This document shows, in pieces, positions 28,101 to 34,100 of a DNA stretch of 64,000 nt (within the stretch, counting starts at the first letter, position 1; every line of letters begins with the position of its first letter). Source of the stretch: an uncultured Gemmatimonadales bacterium (GTDB lineage Bacteria; Gemmatimonadota; Gemmatimonadetes; Longimicrobiales; RSA9); the NCBI GenBank assembly GCA_963741945.1, contig CAVUKA010000003.1, positions 819,998 to 883,997 on the forward strand, read 5' to 3'. The position numbers are program-made.

Positions 28101-31100
28101 ACGCCCTTGATCGACACCACCTTCCCCGTCTTGCTCGTCGTCCGGATGTTGATCACGCCCTTCCCGCCCCGGCCCTGCAGACGGTAGTCGTCGATCCGGC
28201 TTCGCTTCCCGAGCCCCCGCTCCGTCACCACCAGCAGCGTGGGCTCCCCCTCGACTCCCGCTGCCGGCGGCTCCGCCGGCGACGCCCCGTCACCCGCCAG
28301 CGCGGCCGCTTCCTCGTCCGCCGCCGTGCCGGCCGCCGACGTGGCTCCGCCCGCCTCGCCGATCGCCGCGGCGCCCGGGCGGACCACGACCATGCCGACC
28401 ACGTAGTCGTCCTTCATCAGGCGGATGCCCCGGACGCCGGTGGTGGCCCGCCCCATCTGCCGGACGTCATCCTCCTGGAAGCGGATGGCCATGCCCTCGT
28501 GCGTGGCCAGGATCACCTGGTCGTCGCCCGACGTGATCTGGACATCGATCAGCTCATCGCCCTCCAGCACGTTGATGGCGTTCACGCCCGTGACGCGGAT
28601 GTGCTGGTATGCGCTGAGCGCGCTCTTCTTCACCACGCCGCGACGCGTGGTGAACAGCAGGTTCAGCTCGTCGCTGAACTCGCGCACGGGGACCACCGCG
28701 GCGATGGCCGCCTCCGGCCCGAGCTGGAGCAGGTTGATGATCGGCTTCCCCCTCGCGGCGCGGCCGACCTGCGGGATCTGGTGCACTTTCAGCCAGTAGC
28801 ACTGGCCGCGGCGGGTGAACACCATGAGGTAGTCGTGGGTCTGCGCCAGGAACAGGTGCTCGACCCAGTCTTCCTCCTTCGTGTTCATCCCCATCAGCCC
28901 CCGCCCGCCCCGGCGCTGCGTCCGGTACGTGTCCAGCGGGAGGCGCTTGACATACCCCGCGTGGGAGATGGTGACGACCATGGGCTCGTCGGGGATCAGG
29001 TCCTCGATGGACAGGTCGACACTGTCGCCCACGATCTGGGTCCGCCGGTCGTCGCCGTACTTGTCCGCCAGCTCCTGGAGCTCGTCCTTGATGATCTGGA
29101 AGCGGCGAGCCTGGTTGGACAGGATGTCCTCCAGGTCCTCGATGGTGGCCAGGACCTGCCGGATCTCCTCTTCCAGCTTCTCGATCTCCAGCCCCGTGAG
29201 GCGGGCCAGGCGCATGTCCAGGATCGCCCGCGCCTGCGCCTCGCTCAGCTCGAACTCCGACATGAGGGAGCCGCGCGCTTCCTCCGTGTCGCTCGAGCCG
29301 CGGACGATCTCGATCACGCGGTCGATGTTGTCGACGGCGATCTTCAGCCCCTGGAGGATGTGCTCGCGCGCCCGGGCCTGCGCCAGGTCGTGCTCGCTCC
29401 GGCGCACGATCACTGTGTGGCGATGATCGATGAAGTGGCGGAGCAGCTCCTTCAGGCTCATGACCCGCGGCACGCCATTGTCCAGCGCCAGCATGATCAC
29501 GCCGAACGTGGACTGCATCTGCGTGTGCTTGAACAGCTGGTTCAGCACGATGTAGGGGATGGCGTCGCGCTTGAGCTCGATCACCACGCGCATTCCGTCC
29601 CGGTCGCTCTCGTCGCGCAGGTCCCGGATGTCCGTGATCCGCTTGTCGCGCACCAGCTGCGCCATCTGCTCGATCATGCGCGCCTTGTTCACCATGTACG
29701 GGATCTCGTGGACGATGATCCGGCTGCTGCCGTCGTCGTCCTCCTCGATCTGCGCTTTCGCCCGCATGATGATCCGGCCCCGCCCCGTCTCGTACGCCTC
29801 ACGGATCCCGTCGCGACCATGGATGAACCCGCCCGTGGGCAGGTCCGGGCCGCGCACGTGCTCCATCAGGTCCGCCACCGTGCACTCCGGGTTGTCCACC
29901 AGGTGCTGCGCCGCCGCCACCACTTCACGCAGGTTGTGCGGCGGGATGTTCGTGGCCATCCCCACCGCGATCCCGGACGCCCCGTTCACCAGCAGGTTCG
30001 GCAGCTTCGACGGCAGGACCACCGGCTCCTCGCGCTGGTCGTCGAACGTGGGCGTGAAGCCCACGGTGTCCTTGTCGATGTCCGCCAGCAGCTCCTGCGC
30101 GATGGCCTGGAGCCTCGCCTCCGTGTACCGGTACGCCGCGGCGTTGTCGCCATCGATGGAGCCGAAGTTCCCCTGCCCGTCCACCAGCGGGTAGCGCAGC
30201 GAGAAGGACTGGACCATCCGCACCATGGCGTCGTACACCGCCGAGTCGCCGTGCGGGTGGTACTTCCCCAGCACTTCGCCCACCACGTTCGCGCTCTTCT
30301 TGTACGGCCGCGTGGGGCCCAGACCCAGCTCGCTCATGGCGTACAGGATCCGCCGGTGCACCGGCTTCAGACCGTCCCGCACGTCCGGCAGCGCCCGCTG
30401 CACGATCACGCTCATCGAGTAGTCCAGGAAGGACTCCCGCATCTCCTCCTCGATGAGGCGAGGAAGGACTTTCGACTGCGTTCCGGGCATGTCCGGAGTG
30501 TCCATCGGCAACCGTTTTCTTGAATGAGTCGAGTCGGGGGGCCGGCCGGTTGACCGGCAACCCCGTAATTTAGCCAGTTTCCAGGGTTTCTGCGAGTCAT
30601 TCGTCGTACACCTCCGGGCCTCCGAAGTTCACGCGCGCGCGCGCGGAGAACGGCGGAGAGGCGGAGAGAGGCGGAGAGGCGGAGAGGCGGAGAGGCGGAG
30701 AGGCGGAGAGGCGGAGAGGCGGAGAGGCGGAGAGGCGGAGAGCGCGGAGAGGCGGAGAGGCGGAGAGGCGGAGAGGCGGAGAGGCGGAGAGGCGGAGAGC
30801 GGCGGAGAGCGCGGAGGAACAGCGGTTCACGCGGAGCCGCGGAGAACGCGGAGGTCCGGCGGCGAGGGCCGGGAGACGGACTCGCCCGGGCGGCTTCCGG
30901 GGGATTCTCTTTTGTTTGTGCCGCGCGCGGCTACGGTGGCGGCATGGCGGGCCCCGCGGGGGATGCCGGGATCACGGTGGAGCGTCGGAGGGAGCGGAGG
31001 AACAGCGATTCACGCGGAGTCGCGGAGAACGCGGAGGGTCCGGCGGCGCGGGCCGGGAGACGGACTGGCCCGGGCGGCTTCCGGGGGATTCTCTCTTGTT

Positions 31101-34100
31101 TCTGCCGGGCGCGTTGACACCGCCCGGCCACTCGGGGGACCCCGGGGGTCCTCCGCGTCCTCCGCGGCTCCGCGGCTCCGCGTGGAATGGTGTATCGGAG
31201 CGCTCGGTGGCGGCGGAGGCTGGCACCGCTCGGCATGCCCCGGCCACTCGGGGCAACCCGGGGGTTCTCCGCGTCCTCCGCGGCTCCGCGTGGAACGGTG
31301 TATCGGAGCGCTCGGTGGCGGCGGAGGCTGGCACCGCCCGGCATGCCCCGGCCGCTCGAAGCAGCCCGGGGGTCCTCCGCGTCCTTCGCGGCTCCGCGTG
31401 GAATGGTGTATCGGAGCGATCGGTGGCGGCGGAGGCTCGCGCCGCCCGGACGCTAGGAATTGACCCGGAGTCGGGAACCGGAGTCGGGGACGTAGCCGTT
31501 CACGATGCGGGAGATGCCCTCCTTCATGGTGGGCGCGCCGAAATTGAGGAGGAGGGCGACCTGCAGGTCCATCAGGCGGAGATACGTGAAGGTCTGCCGG
31601 CGGTGGACCGGAAGCAGGTGCTCCACCGCCTTGACCTCCACCACCACGATCTCGTTGATCAGCAGGTCCACCGTGAGCGCGCCGTCGAAACGGAGGCCGT
31701 CGTATTCGAACGTGACCGGCCGCTGGCGCTCCACCCGCAGTCCACGCCGCGCCAGGTCCTTCGCCAGCAGCCGCTCGTACACCGACTCCAGCAGCCCCGG
31801 CCCCAGCCCCCGGTGCAGCCAGTAGGCGGCATCTACGATCTCCGCCGTGATCACATCCGTTCCGGGCACGACTTCGACGATTCCGCAGTCGTGTCCCCCG
31901 CCCGCCTCACCACTCCCCTTCATGGCTCCTCACGCAGTTCCCTCCGCGCTCTCCGCGCCTCCGCGTGACCGCAGTTCCTCCGCGCTCTCCGCGCCCTCCG
32001 CGTGACCGCAGTTCCTCCGCGCTCTCCGCGCCCTCCGCGTGACCGCAGTTCCCTCCGCGCTCTCCGCGTGGGAATGTTCCGGGTGTGGTGGGGCACGGGA
32101 ATGGCCCGATGCGCCGTCCTGCGGGGATACCGGGCGCCGCGCCGCGCCCTGGAACGGTCCGGCCGCTCCGCTCCGCCTACTCCGCGGCCTTGATTCTCTT
32201 CTGCAGCTCGTCGATGAGCGCCGAAGCCGTGCCCTCCGCGCCGCCGGTGAGCTCGTCGAGGGACTCCGCGCCGACCAGCCGGGCGGCCTCTGTCGGCGAC
32301 AGCCCGGCCTCGGAGACCAGGTCATCGATGAAGCGGCGCTGCCTGGCGCTCGCGGGCTTGCGCTCGTCGTAGACGCGGCGGAGCTCGTCGATGGCCGCGC
32401 TGGCCTGGACGCTGGTCCGGATCTCGTCGGGAGAGCGATGGCCGGTGAGCTGCTCGAGCTCGTCGTCGTCCAGGGCCAGGTCGGCCACGAGCTCGCGCAG
32501 GTAGGTCATCTGCCGCTCCGTCGGGGCGGGGTGGACGCCGGCGTCGCGGAGCTCGCGGATGAGCTCGCTGGCCTCATCGTAGGAGAGACCGGAAATGTGG
32601 GGATGTGCCGCGCGCACCTCCTCGGGCGCATTCTCCAGCAGCCGGTTGAGCGTCTTCTTCTGGCTGGAGACGATGCCGCCCGCCTTCTTCTTTTCGAGGG
32701 CGATGTTGTGCAGGTCGCGGACTTCGTCGCGCCATTCCTCCCAGCTCGCCGGCGCCGCCTCCTCACCCTCCGCGATCCGGTCCAGCCGCTCCTCCATCAC
32801 GGCAGTGAATTCGGGGCTGAACAGCTCCTCCACCACGCTCTCCTCGGCGCCATCCTTCGCGTACAGCGGCGCGGCGTGCAGCCAGATGATGCGGCCCCGC
32901 TCCGTGGGGACGAGGGCGCCATCCTCGAGCGCCACGTAGTCGCGCTCTTCCAGCTTCTCCACGGTGCGGCTGTACGTGGACGGCCGTCCGATCCCCGCGT
33001 CCTTCATGGCCTTGATCAGCGTGTGCGGCCGGTAGCGCGGCGGCGGCTTGGTCTCGTCCGCCACGAGCAGCGGGTTGTCGCGGTCGTCGGCGGGCGGGTC
33101 CAGCTCCCAGACCGCGCCCTCGGTCAGCGGGACGTCCGGCGGCGACGTGGCCACCTCGCCCATGAACTCGGCGTACGCGGCTTCCCAGCCGGCGAACGTG
33201 CGCCACGAGACGCTCCCCGTGAGCGGCCGGTCGAGCCCGTCGGCCGCGGCCCCGATGCTCACGATGGTGCGCTGCGACGGCGCCATCTGGCTCGCCAGCG
33301 TATGGGCGCGGATGAGGCGGTACATGCGACGCGCGTCGGCGTCGTCCAGCGCGGGCTCCTCCACTTCCAGACGCGTGGGGCGGATCGCCTCGTGCGCGTC
33401 CTGGACCGGCCCCTTCAGCACGCCGCTCGCCGTGCCCGGGCCCAGGTGGTCCTCGCCGAACGCCGCCTTCACCACGTCGCGCGCACGCGCCACCGCCGAC
33501 GCCGCGAGGCGGGTCGAGTCGGTGCGGATGTACGTGATGTGGCCGGCCTCGTAGAGCATCGACGCCAACGCGGACGTCTTCCGGGGCGACCACCCGAAGC
33601 GCGAGCCCGCGGCCTGGAGCAGCGCGTCCGTGGTCAGCGGCGAGTCCGGGCGACGCTGCCGCGTCCGCTCCGCCAGCAATGTCACGGTCACGCGCCCGGC
33701 CGCCTTCAACGCCCGCACTGCGCGCCCCGCCAGGTCGCCATCGAACGTGCGGGACGGATGCACCTTGCCCGCCTCGTCATGCCAGGCATCGGCGTCGTCG
33801 CGCTCGTGGAAGCGGACTTCCAGGTCCACGCCCAGCGCCAGCCCGTGCACTTCGAAATACGGGATCGGGACGTGCGCTTCGCGCTCCAGCTCCCGCTCCA
33901 CCACGAAGCCGAGCGTGGGCGTCTGCACGCGGCCCATCGACGCGGAGCCGCCCACCAGCGACTTCGCCGTCTTGGCCGACCGATACCCGATCAGCCGGTC
34001 CAGGAACTTGCGGACCAGCGCGCTCTCCACCATCCGCGCGTCCACCGGCCGCGGATTCGCGATGGCGGCCTCCACCGCCTCCCGCGTCACTTCCTGGAAC

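What a model noticed while it worked through the whole genome (the two positions that open the first line are those of the whole stretch)
30643..32068. GxxExxY nuclease gene bracketed by, and co-varying with, the genome's triple-heptad repeats
g2020 (C3:851453-851920, minus strand) is a GxxExxY / PDDEXK_3 protein of unknown function. It is flanked by the same CAC-(GCGRAG)3 units that are dispersed 121 times in the genome. Across relatives, the heptad variant that flanks the homolog is the variant amplified genome-wide, and genomes without the gene lack the repeats. This is a REPIN-RAYT-like enzyme-repeat partnership with a PD-(D/E)XK nuclease. The functional link is inferred, not shown.
Evidence so far: Gene identity: TIGR04256 121.5 bits; only 2 copies in the genome. 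Flanks: units at 851939-852038 end 18 nt before the ATG, with further units at 851157-851397 and inverted ones at 850825-851033. Abundance: 121 strict units against 0 for the reversed control. Variant counts: CGCGGAG G000 102, G038 87, G032 3, G034 3, G040 0. CGCAGAG G034 87, G038 84, G032 78, G000 0. CACAGAG G040 1186, G000 0. Flanking variants were read in 10 loci. Presence/absence: at least 2 hits in 17 of 26 gene-positive against 0 of 15 gene-negative relatives. Phylum sample: 6 of 6 pattern-positive genomes are gene-positive, against 52 of 150 overall. Blind regex: units within 200 nt of 21 of 31 GxxExxY genes against 70 [...]
(Added by a program. Inside this text positions count along the whole contig: contig position 819,998 is position 1 of the stretch shown here. 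"Call 12" and the like, gene names such as g00115 and contig names such as C1 are that model's own, and its searches are not shown. The text may have been shortened before it was handed on; [...] marks where a part breaks off. The agent that wrote the report below was given it as the finding of a first reader that could run no searches.)

Follow-up and report, generated by a model that had tools for sequence, protein, structure and literature searches.

The report
Small nuclease gene with private heptad repeats
A small nuclease gene sits inside a tiny element whose inverted ends are three copies of a seven-letter word, and gene-less copies of those ends litter the genome only where such a gene is present, a pairing that recurs across many bacterial phyla and may explain a long-noted excess of heptamer repeats.

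Summary
Window 31453-31923 (-) encodes a GxxExxY / PDDEXK_3 protein with an intact PD-(D/E)XK site. It lies between gyrA and a type IA topoisomerase gene, in about 1.4 kb of repeats built from the unit TCAC + three CGCGGAG words.

That word is by far the commonest triple-run word in the genome: 75 runs in 19 loci, against 14 or fewer for unrelated words.

The genome's second GxxExxY gene is bracketed by a different word (CNCGAAG), which is also dispersed.

In a blind test, 81 of 121 GxxExxY loci from more than ten phyla have inverted arms of this kind at about -50 and +20 of the gene. Controls gave 0 of 300 and 0 of 121.

In a 151-genome phylum sample, 26 of 27 repeat-rich genomes carry the gene, and 94 of 95 gene-less genomes have fewer than 5 units.

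The word next to the gene is usually an amplified word in that genome. There are orphan families, though, and one prediction of mine failed.

Four-helix-bundle (S23p-type) genes and the published Coxiella 23S rRNA intervening sequence share this anatomy.

Best reading: a nuclease-repeat partnership that behaves like REPIN-RAYT and is built like an intervening sequence. No enzymology or expression data exist, and I found no report of it in the papers searched.

The parts
31453..31923 (-). GxxExxY / PDDEXK_3 gene, 156-aa ORF. The family match covers residues 25-141. The first ~24 residues are poorly modelled, so the true start may lie further in.
   Evidence: The alignment shows invariant E46, E96, K98 and Q110 and nearly invariant D86 in window numbering. 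The model has pLDDT 88.3, but under 50 for residues 2-14.
31933..32068 (-). 3.7 tandem copies of a 37-nt repeat. Three of them hold a unit TCAC-GCGGAG-G(G)C-GCGGAG-AGC-GCGGAG on the gene's strand (units at 31942-31964, 31978-32001, 32015-32038). The innermost unit is the upstream arm and ends 18 nt before the ATG. The block lies 3' of the topoisomerase gene.
   Evidence: period 37, 97% matches.
31123..31449 (-). Three copies of a 108-nt repeat just downstream of the gene. Each carries a unit in direct orientation relative to the upstream units (31151-31181 and 31267-31289; the third, near 31374-31396, is degenerate with CTTCGCG).
30819..31115 (+). Two copies, about 183 nt apart, of a segment that starts with an inverted unit (30831-30853 and 31014-31036) followed by a GC-rich hairpin-like stretch and a T-rich run. 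30827-30854 is the downstream arm of the inverted pair that brackets the gene.
   Evidence: (read by eye), and (I13: 28 nt, 93% complementary to 31941-31968; also I1, I5, I16).
30642..30853 (+). Tandem 8-mer array, GGCGGAGA x about 20-25. It is a simple-repeat derivative of the same word and lies upstream of the gyrA start.
   Evidence: (period 8, 19.9 copies, 93% matches).
27815..30511 (-). Flanking gene: DNA gyrase subunit A.
   Evidence: PF00521 553 bits, PF03989.
32177..34474 (-). Flanking gene: type IA DNA topoisomerase (Toprim + Topoisom_bac).

Best explanation
The gene encodes an active small PD-(D/E)XK endonuclease. It is the protein partner of a family of short DNA elements whose ends are 'TCAC + three (sometimes four) C-N-C-R-R-A-G words'.

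The complete element is an upstream arm, about 20-35 nt, the roughly 125-aa ORF, about 15-30 nt, and an inverted arm. It is typically 435-480 bp long. Gene-less derivatives of the arms occur as single units, tight inverted doublets and tandem arrays of 36-43-nt period. They accumulate in intergenic DNA of the same genome.

Shown here:
- the anatomy;
- its recurrence across phyla;
- the restriction of the repeats to genomes that carry the gene;
- the usual identity of the word at the gene with an amplified word in that genome;
- insertion differences between two species of one genus;
- conservation of the catalytic residues.

Inferred:
- the nuclease binds the tandem words, perhaps one protomer per word;
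- it cuts at or near the sharp TCAC boundary;
- the break is repaired by copying, which spreads or maintains arms in trans, so that the gene-bearing copy is the master of a non-autonomous population.

In population structure this works like REPIN-RAYT. In anatomy it is like a 23S rRNA intervening sequence.

The window copy is a rearranged, repeat-inflated example that a species of the same genus (G001) lacks.
For: Anatomy:
- 81 of 121 evaluable GxxExxY loci have flank-to-flank inverted matches scoring 15 or more. This breaks down as 56 of 78 cross-phylum loci and 25 of 43 from relatives.
- Controls gave 0 of 300 random G000 positions and 0 of 121 with the downstream flank shuffled.
- The upstream arm is purine-rich on the sense strand in 68 of 81. 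Where I read the arms these begin (C)TCAC at the outer end.
- Most arms carry R-C-N-N-A/C-G words (75 of 81).

Within G000:
- GCGGAG is the top word of 223 in an unbiased survey, with 75 runs in 19 loci; the next unrelated word has 14 or fewer.
- The second paralogue, at C2:6984-7334, is bracketed by a 39-nt inverted pair of a different word, which is itself dispersed in about 20 units and in gene-less pairs.

Word matching:
- In genus g28 the counts for GCGGAG / GCAGAG / ACAGAG triples are: G038 90/7/0, G040 5/0/761, G032 7/12/2, G028 15/161/13. The gene flanks are CGCGGAG, CACAGAG, CGCAGAG, and CGCGGRG plus AGCAGAG respectively.
- G032, G038 and G040 carry the gene at what looks like the same site.
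- I predicted that the second G028 gene would carry AGCAGAG units, and it does.
- G181 has 1 gene with CGCGGAG and 15 units, nearly all CGCGGAG.

Presence and absence:
- Relatives: 15 of 15 gene-negative genomes have 2 or fewer CRCRRAG triples; 20 of 26 gene-positive genomes have 5 or more.
- Phylum sample: 26 of 27 genomes with 5 or more carry the gene, and 94 of 95 gene-negative genomes have fewer than 5.
- The units follow GxxExxY and not the four-helix-bundle gene. G006, G008, G012 and G023 have the latter only and have 0 units. G038 has GxxExxY only and has 105.

Mobility:
- The array locus at C3:78.7-79.4 kb is a spacer of about 45 bp in G001, and a CGAAG pair at C3:81.0 kb is missing there.
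- G001 has other DNA between gyrA and the topoisomerase gene and no GxxExxY there.
- The window protein's nearest relative in the tree comes from another genus (G005; SH-aLRT 99).

Protein and alternatives:
- E46, E96, K98 and Q110 are invariant and D86 nearly invariant in 62 sequences. The model is a confident PD-(D/E)XK fold.
- The only Y1-transposase-like hit in G000 is weak (28.9 bits) and lies away from every unit.
Against: - No biochemistry exists, and no RNA run is on record (under Tried and rejected).
- Word matching is imperfect. G182 has one gene (CGCGAAG) but more CGCGGAG units. G032 has an abundant CACGGAG family and one gene with CGCAGAG. G185 has 4 CGCGGAG units beside 6 CGCAGAG. 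G124 has 16 units and no gene.
- My prediction that the two remaining G184 genes would carry CGCGGAG and CGCGAAG failed: one has CACAGAT and one has no arms.
- 40 of 121 loci show no arms by my detector, and 30 of 56 gene-positive genomes in the phylum sample have fewer than 5 units. Amplification is therefore optional.
- I saw no target-site duplication, and a hydrolytic nuclease alone cannot join DNA.
- Words change often on the protein tree: 40 changes among 75 rows, against a shuffled mean of 52. So either specificity is loose or the words are homogenised by slippage.
- The same anatomy around a non-nuclease family (27 of 30 four-helix-bundle loci) shows that a nuclease is not needed for it.
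- In the window itself the nearest downstream units are direct, not inverted.
- Genomes within a lineage are not independent.
- Some tallies include unpublished genomes (G016, G017, G020, G097).
Confidence: 0.6

Rival explanations
1. Intervening-sequence-like cassette acting at the RNA level. The two arms pair in the transcript into a stem of about 28 bp that RNase III removes, so the element can sit in 3' untranslated regions or in rRNA without harm. The ORF is cargo of a generic 'inverted heptamer array' carrier that can hold different small genes. On this reading the nuclease is not what spreads the repeats.
For: - The Coxiella 23S rRNA intervening sequence is described as a 428-nt selfish element with a 28-bp terminal stem cut by RNase III and three tandem heptamers before the S23p ORF (PMC4990558, passages read).
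- 27 of 30 four-helix-bundle (TIGR02436) loci in the relatives have inverted tandem-repeat arms.
- That gene in G040 is flanked by CGGGGAA, which has 230 triple hits in G040 and 0 in four genomes of the same genus.
- Many G000 units lie just 3' of a gene, in that gene's orientation, or between convergent genes (crude gene caller).
Against: - Mismatches between arms show no bias towards G-U-compatible changes on the sense strand: 40 against 51.
- About 8 of 81 loci have the arms inside-out relative to the gene.
- The catalytic residues of the nuclease are conserved.
- CRCRRAG units follow the GxxExxY gene, not the four-helix-bundle gene.
- An RNA stem does not explain why the three words within one arm stay alike, nor how gene-less copies spread.
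Confidence: 0.2
2. Passenger gene. Heptamer arrays arise and expand on their own in intergenic DNA, by polymerase slippage and recombination. Small, horizontally acquired genes such as this one merely lodge in those permissive spacers.
For: - Intergenic heptamer repeats are reported as over-represented in many bacteria, with no partner gene named in the passages I read (PMC4692102 and PMC4679880).
- AGTGCG octamer arrays are abundant in all five g28 genomes, including G038, where no four-helix-bundle gene was found.
- Orphan CRCRRAG families occur in G032, G182, G184 and G185, and in gene-less G124.
- The window holds a plain 8-mer array of the same word.
Against: - The geometry is fixed across phyla, with arms at about -50 and +20 and a sharp TCAC boundary.
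- 94 of 95 gene-negative genomes have fewer than 5 units.
- Two paralogues in one genome have two different words.
- The same site in G032, G038 and G040 carries three words, each matched genome-wide.
Confidence: 0.1
3. The words are operator or recognition sites for a sequence-specific function of the protein other than spreading them. Possibilities are autoregulation of its own gene, a restriction-like or nucleoid-organising role, or termination and stabilisation of neighbouring transcripts.
For: - The upstream arm lies between any promoter and the start codon.
- Units sit at gene ends.
- The nearest structural neighbours include restriction endonucleases (BpuSI Z 7.8).
Against: - No defence-system model matches: PADLOC gave 0 families.
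- No methyltransferase or partner gene lies in the element.
- Autoregulation does not need a second, inverted arm after the stop codon, nor hundreds of dispersed copies.
Confidence: 0.07

Closest known systems
REPIN-RAYT systems (REP doublets and their single-copy REP-associated tyrosine transposases)
   Same: - A low-copy gene is flanked by the very repeats that are dispersed through the genome.
- Gene-less inverted doublets exist: tight pairs in G038 and pairs about 100 nt apart in G181.
- The repeats lie in intergenic DNA.
- Repeats are missing where the gene is missing.
- There are signs of same-site persistence within a genus.
- The definitions are taken from abstracts listed (PMC3337134, PMC3116915, bioRxiv 10.1101/2022.05.22.493013).
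   Different: - The enzyme is a roughly 125-aa PD-(D/E)XK hydrolase, not a HUH Y1 transposase.
- The unit is a direct triple of a 7-8-nt word, not a palindromic hairpin.
- Tandem arrays are common.
- The taxonomic range is much wider.
- Up to 11 gene matches occur per genome.
23S rRNA intervening sequences with an S23p ORF (Coxiella and Leptospira type)
   Same: - Length is about 430-480 nt.
- Terminal inverted repeats are about 28 nt.
- Three tandem heptamers lie at the 5' end, just before a small ORF, and the heptamer number varies.
- The published heptamer, GACAGAT, resembles words seen here such as CACAGAT in G184 and G005.
   Different: - The ORF is a nuclease, not a four-helix bundle.
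- The site is intergenic, not helix 45 of 23S rRNA.
- Gene-less arms are amplified across the genome.
- RNase III processing was not tested here.
IS elements with their MITEs
   Same: An ORF-bearing master copy carries terminal inverted repeats of about 26-40 nt, and short gene-less derivatives carry the same ends. The ends hold repeated sub-sites; that transposon ends in general do so is my recollection.
   Different: There is no DDE, serine or tyrosine transposase. I saw no target-site duplication. The element is under 0.5 kb. The ORF is too small, and chemically unfit, to do strand transfer alone.
Intergenic heptamer repeats of Xanthomonas, Nostoc and Beggiatoaceae
   Same: These are abundant 7-nt tandem repeats in intergenic DNA, often in convergent pairs on opposite strands. 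70-75 such pairs are reported in Xanthomonas (PMC4692102, passages). G010's GxxExxY gene is flanked by GGGGAT-type words.
   Different: Those papers name no protein partner in the passages I read. I did not test whether those particular repeat families flank a GxxExxY or four-helix-bundle gene.

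Membership tests
GxxExxY protein (TIGR04256) / PDDEXK_3 (PF13366) | Score above the curated cut-off over the whole model | tested here: met
   121.4 bits against 35, covering model positions 2-116 of 116. 120.7 bits against 22.
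GxxExxY protein (TIGR04256) / PDDEXK_3 (PF13366) | PD-(D/E)XK catalytic residues and the G-x-x-E-x-x-Y motif | tested here: met
   G43, E46, Y49, E96, K98 and Q110 are invariant and D86 nearly invariant in 62 sequences. The model has the alpha-beta core of the fold.
REPIN-RAYT | The enzyme is a HUH Y1 transposase (Y1_Tnp, PF01797) | tested here: not met
   The gene is PD-(D/E)XK. The only Y1_Tnp hit in G000 (C1:755443-755721, 28.9 bits) has no unit nearby.
REPIN-RAYT | The repeat unit is a palindromic REP hairpin | tested here: not met
   Single units fold no better than shuffles (z -0.6, -1.9, -1.6).
REPIN-RAYT | Gene flanked by its own repeats; inverted doublets dispersed; repeats absent without the gene | tested here: met
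   Exceptions: G124, and the orphan families.
REPIN-RAYT | Long-term vertical inheritance of gene and repeats | tested here: inconclusive
   G032, G038 and G040 share flanks, and Sphingomonas species share the upstream flank. But the window copy is missing from the same-genus species G001, and host phyla are mixed on the protein tree.
23S rRNA intervening sequence (S23p type) | Terminal inverted repeats of about 28 nt and about three tandem heptamers before a small ORF | tested here: met
   (28 nt, 93%), compared with passages of PMC4990558.
23S rRNA intervening sequence (S23p type) | Sits in 23S rRNA; the ORF is a four-helix-bundle S23p | tested here: not met
   The flanks are gyrA and a topoisomerase gene. 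The ORF is PDDEXK_3.
23S rRNA intervening sequence (S23p type) | Excised from the transcript by RNase III | not testable with these tools
   No RNA run is listed.
IS / MITE | Target-site duplication and a recombinase-type transposase | tested here: not met
   No duplication was seen beside 55 clean elements read by eye. Pfam finds only PDDEXK_3.

The most novel reading that the evidence does not exclude
GxxExxY nucleases, and in parallel the four-helix-bundle S23p-type proteins, are the missing protein partners of the over-represented intergenic heptamer repeats of bacteria. Each gene copy carries and propagates its own 7-8-nt word. Together they form an ancient, pan-bacterial class of nested replicators, of which the classical 23S rRNA intervening sequences are one special insertion. 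The word-protein pairs would then be a natural library of short-word nucleic-acid recognition by a roughly 125-aa nuclease.
Probability: 0.3. Interest if true: 0.9.

Novelty: new variant of a known kind. Interest (0 to 1): 0.85.

Why it matters
Its function is listed as unknown in the 2012 superfamily survey (PMC3424549, one passage).

If the partnership is real, four things follow.
- The family gets a biological role.
- There is a second, chemically different counterpart to REPIN-RAYT.
- There is a candidate explanation for the excess of intergenic heptamer repeats, and for assembly breaks at these genes.
- Intervening sequences of rRNA become linked to a much wider class of elements.

The many natural word variants, some at what looks like the same site, make recognition directly testable with simple binding and cleavage assays.

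Tried and rejected
- Sequence search of solved structures: 0 matches at E up to 1.
- Foldseek against PDB: nothing at E 0.001 or better. The best hits were CinB, Cas4 SSO0001 and splicing endonuclease. VIA wide gave a best Z of 8.0 (3ijm_B), with BpuSI 7.8, Cas4 7.7 and Hjc 5.8. That is within the range the tool calls common, so it supports the generic PD-(D/E)XK fold only.
- PADLOC: 0 families. PHROGs: only a weak family of unknown function.
- Expression: no RNA holder is listed for window 31100-32150, only two DNA contig holders from one study. I did not lay reads.
- Target-site duplications: none seen.
- G-U wobble bias in arm mismatches: none, 40 against 51.
- Remnants of decayed GxxExxY genes between gene-less arms in G000: only the two genes were found, from 3 candidates scored.
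- Word prediction for the remaining G184 genes: failed.
- Literature. 'GxxExxY' occurs in 3 papers. The search listed 2 of them; of these I read one passage of one paper, which does not concern repeats. 'PDDEXK_3', PF13366, TIGR04256 and IPR026350 occur in 2 papers, with function unknown. I did not open supplements; those of PMC4679880 and PMC4692102 list repeat-neighbouring genes and could name such a gene.
- I did not run complex prediction, because no claim here depends on it.

Full report
**What is in the window.** The ORF at 31453..31923 (-) encodes a 156-aa protein. It scores 121.4 bits on TIGR04256 (GxxExxY, cut-off 35) and 120.7 bits on PF13366 (PDDEXK_3). It lies between gyrA (27815..30511, -) and a type IA topoisomerase gene (32177..34474, -).

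The 1.6-kb spacer around the gene is almost wholly repeats built on one unit, TCAC-GCGGAG-N-CGCGGAG-NN-CGCGGAG.
- Upstream of the gene, on its strand, are 3.7 copies of a 37-nt repeat (31933-32068). Three of them hold a unit, and the last unit ends 18 nt before the ATG.
- Downstream are three 108-nt repeats (31123-31449), each with a unit in direct orientation.
- Next come two inverted units (30831-30853 and 31014-31036).
- Last is an 8-mer array, GGCGGAGA x about 20 (30652-30816).

The best inverted pair around the gene is 30827-30854 with 31941-31968: 28 nt, 93% complementary, 1086 nt apart.

**The genome.** G000 has 4.09 Mb in 8 contigs at 70% G+C.
- Clusters of at least 3 GCGGAG at spacing 7-10 number 76, against 0-7 for ten permuted or altered cores. 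They lie in about 18 loci, mostly as tandem arrays of 36-43-nt period.
- In an unbiased survey of all 6-mers in triple runs at spacing 7-9, GCGGAG is first of 223 words, with 75 runs in 19 loci. The next unrelated words have 14 runs or fewer.
- By a crude GC3-based gene caller that covers 68% of the genome, 69 of 76 units lie outside called ORFs. They often sit just 3' of a gene, in its orientation, or as plus-then-minus units between convergent genes.

**The second copy is the key internal control.** The only other GxxExxY gene is at C2:6984-7334. It has no GCGGAG units. It is bracketed by a 39-nt inverted pair, GCGTGACAC-GAAGGGCTCGAAGNTTCGAAGGGCTCGAAG, at about -100 and +23.

Units of this second word (C-N-C-G-A-A-G after GTGACAC) number about 20 and are dispersed. 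They include gene-less inverted pairs 90-200 nt apart, for example at C3:81002/81140 and C3:517695/517889. So one genome holds two paralogues from two deep clades of the protein tree, each with its own word family.

**Generality.** I scored the best ungapped match between the 350 nt upstream of each family match and the reverse complement of the 350 nt downstream.
- Null: random G000 positions gave a mean of 9.5 and a maximum of 14, with 0 of 300 at 15 or more. Shuffling the downstream flank gave 0 of 121 at 15 or more.
- Observed: 81 of 121 evaluable loci score 15 or more.
- Of the 80 loci that the search for related loci returned from species-representative genomes, 56 of the 78 evaluable ones pass. 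Their hosts include Chloroflexota, Sphingomonadaceae, Planctomycetota, Verrucomicrobiota, Desulfobacterota, Acidobacteriota, Nostoc/Nodularia, Bacteroidota and others.
- Rows dropped before the count: partial gene matches (L026, L027, L049, L050); flanks under 60 nt (L004, L012, L048, L072, L108); and L051, the G001 counterpart of the C2 copy.
- Three counted loci come from unpublished genomes (L006, L017, L018). Without them the count is 80 of 118.

The arms are nearly always (C)TCAC followed by three words, sometimes four. They end about 35 nt before the family match and start about 26 nt after it (medians). The upstream arm is purine-rich on the sense strand in 68 of 81. Of the other 13, about 8 are clear inside-out arms by my reading. 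Clean elements measure 435-480 bp end to end. Similarity stops sharply outside TCAC, and I saw no target-site duplication.

Words found are GCAAAG 14, GCAGAG 13, GCGGAG 12, GCGAAG 11, ACAGAG 6, ACGAAG 5, and rarer ones. This gives a consensus of C-N-C-R-R-A-G.

**Word matching.** In genus g28 the genes of G032, G038 and G040 have similar flanking genes, so the site looks the same. Yet their arms read CGCAGAG, CGCGGAG and CACAGAG.

Triple-word counts per genome:

| Genome | GCGGAG | GCAGAG | ACAGAG |
|---|---|---|---|
| G038 | 90 | 7 | 0 |
| G040 | 5 | 0 | 761 |
| G032 | 7 | 12 | 2 |
| G034 | 3 | 1 | 0 |
| G028 | 15 | 161 | 13 |

G028's 161 are mostly AGCAGAG. I predicted that its second gene would carry that word, and it does, though both units lie downstream of the gene.

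Outside the phylum:
- Sphingomonas hylomeconis (G181) has 1 gene with CGCGGAG and 15 units, nearly all CGCGGAG.
- The Novosphingobium MAG (G185) has 1 gene with CGCAGAG, and 6 CGCAGAG plus 4 CGCGGAG units.
- Sphingomonas sp. BK235 (G182) has 1 gene with CGCGAAG, but more CGCGGAG than CGCGAAG units.
- Nostoc sp. 106C (G183) has 3 genes and three word families.
- The Phycisphaerales MAG (G184) has 4 genes. Two match its two commonest families (CACAGAG and CACGAAG). The other two do not match the minor CGCGGAG and CGCGAAG families that I had predicted for them.

G032 also has an abundant CACGGAG family without a matching gene. On the protein tree the word needs 40 changes among 75 rows, against a shuffled mean of 52.3 and a minimum of 46 in 200 shuffles. 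The word is therefore clustered but labile. Matching is a strong tendency, not a law.

**Presence and absence.** I used the general pattern CRCRRAG x3 with gaps of 0-2.
- Among the 41 relatives, all 15 gene-negative genomes have 2 hits or fewer, and 20 of 26 gene-positive genomes have 5 or more. Without the unpublished G016, G017 and G020, this is 18 of 23.
- The six low gene-positive genomes either use words outside the pattern (G001, G004, G010), or have only gene fragments (G021, G022), or show no arms (G017).
- In an even sample of 151 genomes of the phylum, 56 carry the gene. 27 have 5 hits or more, and 26 of those carry the gene. The exception is G124, with 16 hits. Of the 95 gene-negative genomes, 94 have fewer than 5. 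Without the unpublished G097, the figure is 25 of 26.
- Thirty gene-positive genomes have fewer than 5 hits, often just the gene's own two arms (G151, G059). Amplification is therefore optional.

Genomes within a lineage are not independent, so these tables overstate the number of events.

**Insertion differences.** G001 is in the same genus, with 82-91% identity in flanking genes.
- It has a spacer of about 45 bp where G000 has a 780-bp block: nine tandem units, about 300 nt, then inverted units (C3:78.7-79.4 kb).
- It lacks the CGAAG pair at C3:81.0 kb.
- Between gyrA and the topoisomerase gene it has 2268 bp of unrelated DNA that reads as one long minus-strand ORF, and no GxxExxY gene.
- Its own genes carry CACGGAG-type words and the shared CGAAG word.

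**The protein.** In 62 aligned sequences, G43, E46, Y49, E96, K98 and Q110 are invariant and D86 nearly so. That is a complete PD-(D/E)XK site. The AlphaFold model is confident (pLDDT 88.3, pTM 0.80). It resembles only generic members of the superfamily, and no solved relative is found by sequence.

**A wider pattern, and the closest known thing.** Four-helix-bundle genes (TIGR02436, the S23p or intervening-sequence protein family) have the same family-level distribution among the relatives: f1 21/24, f2 0/8, f3 6/8. They are also bracketed by inverted tandem short repeats in 27 of 30 loci, with quite different words. One such word, CGGGGAA, has 230 triple hits in G040 and 0 in four genomes of the same genus. 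Another, the AGTGCG octamer, is abundant in all five, including G038, which lacks the gene.

The Coxiella 23S rRNA intervening sequence is described in print as a 428-nt selfish element. It has a 28-bp terminal stem cut by RNase III and three tandem heptamers before the S23p start codon, and how it moves is unknown (PMC4990558, passages).

Papers on abundant intergenic heptamers in Xanthomonas/Nostoc and in Beggiatoaceae name no protein partner in the passages I read. I did not open their supplements.

CRCRRAG units follow GxxExxY, not the four-helix-bundle gene. G006, G008, G012 and G023 have only the latter and have 0 units. G038 has only GxxExxY and has 105.

**Reading.** I take the gene and its arms to be one evolutionary unit, and the dispersed units to be its non-autonomous derivatives. 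The nuclease most likely recognises the tandem words and nicks or cuts at the TCAC edge (inference).

The strongest rival is the RNA-level, cassette reading. The weaker one is the passenger reading. What would decide between them is simple biochemistry and RNA-end mapping.

**Literature.** I found no description of this association. Of the 3 papers that hold 'GxxExxY', the search listed 2, and I read one passage of one.

Noticed in passing
L143-L172 (relatives); G000 C1:638988-639305: Four-helix-bundle (TIGR02436, S23p-type) genes are bracketed by inverted arrays of short tandem repeats in 27 of 30 loci. The words include AGCTATC, AGTGCGNN, CTAGGCG, CGGGGAA, GGTTGAT and GGGCTAG. The G000 copy has 29-nt arms (score 23).
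   Followed up: partly
G040, G032, G038, G034, G028 (whole genomes): CGGGGAA x3, the word flanking G040's four-helix-bundle gene, has 230 hits in G040 and 0 in four genomes of the same genus. AGTGCG octamer triples number 88-716 in all five, including G038, where no such gene was found.
   Followed up: partly
G000 C2:7403-8095 (L001 1920-2612): Next to the second GxxExxY element, two small ORFs lie between further CGAAG-type units. One of them is a DUF2442 protein (67 bits).
   Followed up: partly
window 30642-30853: A GGCGGAGA 8-mer array of about 20 copies lies directly upstream of the gyrA start codon region. Any effect on gyrA expression is unknown.
   Followed up: no
L051 (G001:C6:1353250-1353599): The G001 counterpart of the C2 copy has identical 39-nt arms, but its family match is split into two adjoining pieces. 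This suggests a frameshifted gene with intact arms.
   Followed up: no
G021 (whole genome): The reversed control pattern has 58 hits here and the true pattern has 0. This suggests a repeat family with the word read backwards, in a genome that holds only a fragment of the gene.
   Followed up: no
many loci (e.g. G003:C702:97-447, G030:C418:103-444, G005:C50:2-301): Many GxxExxY matches lie within a few hundred bases of contig ends, as expected if their repeats break short-read assemblies. Gene and repeat counts in draft genomes are therefore lower bounds.
   Followed up: no
G000 C1:473400-473700, C1:621600-621900, C1:690350-690610: Units of the GCGGAG and CGAAG families occur side by side or nested in the same spacers, as also in Sphingomonas sp. 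BK235 (G182 C1:402922-403419). Either certain spacers are hot spots, or elements insert into one another.
   Followed up: no
L074, L081, L070, L090, L099 (Sphingomonas spp.): The element follows directly on a conserved upstream sequence ending ...AAGATGTGA in several Sphingomonas species, while the word differs between them (CGCGAAG or CGCGGAG). This looks like a second case of the same site carrying different words.
   Followed up: no
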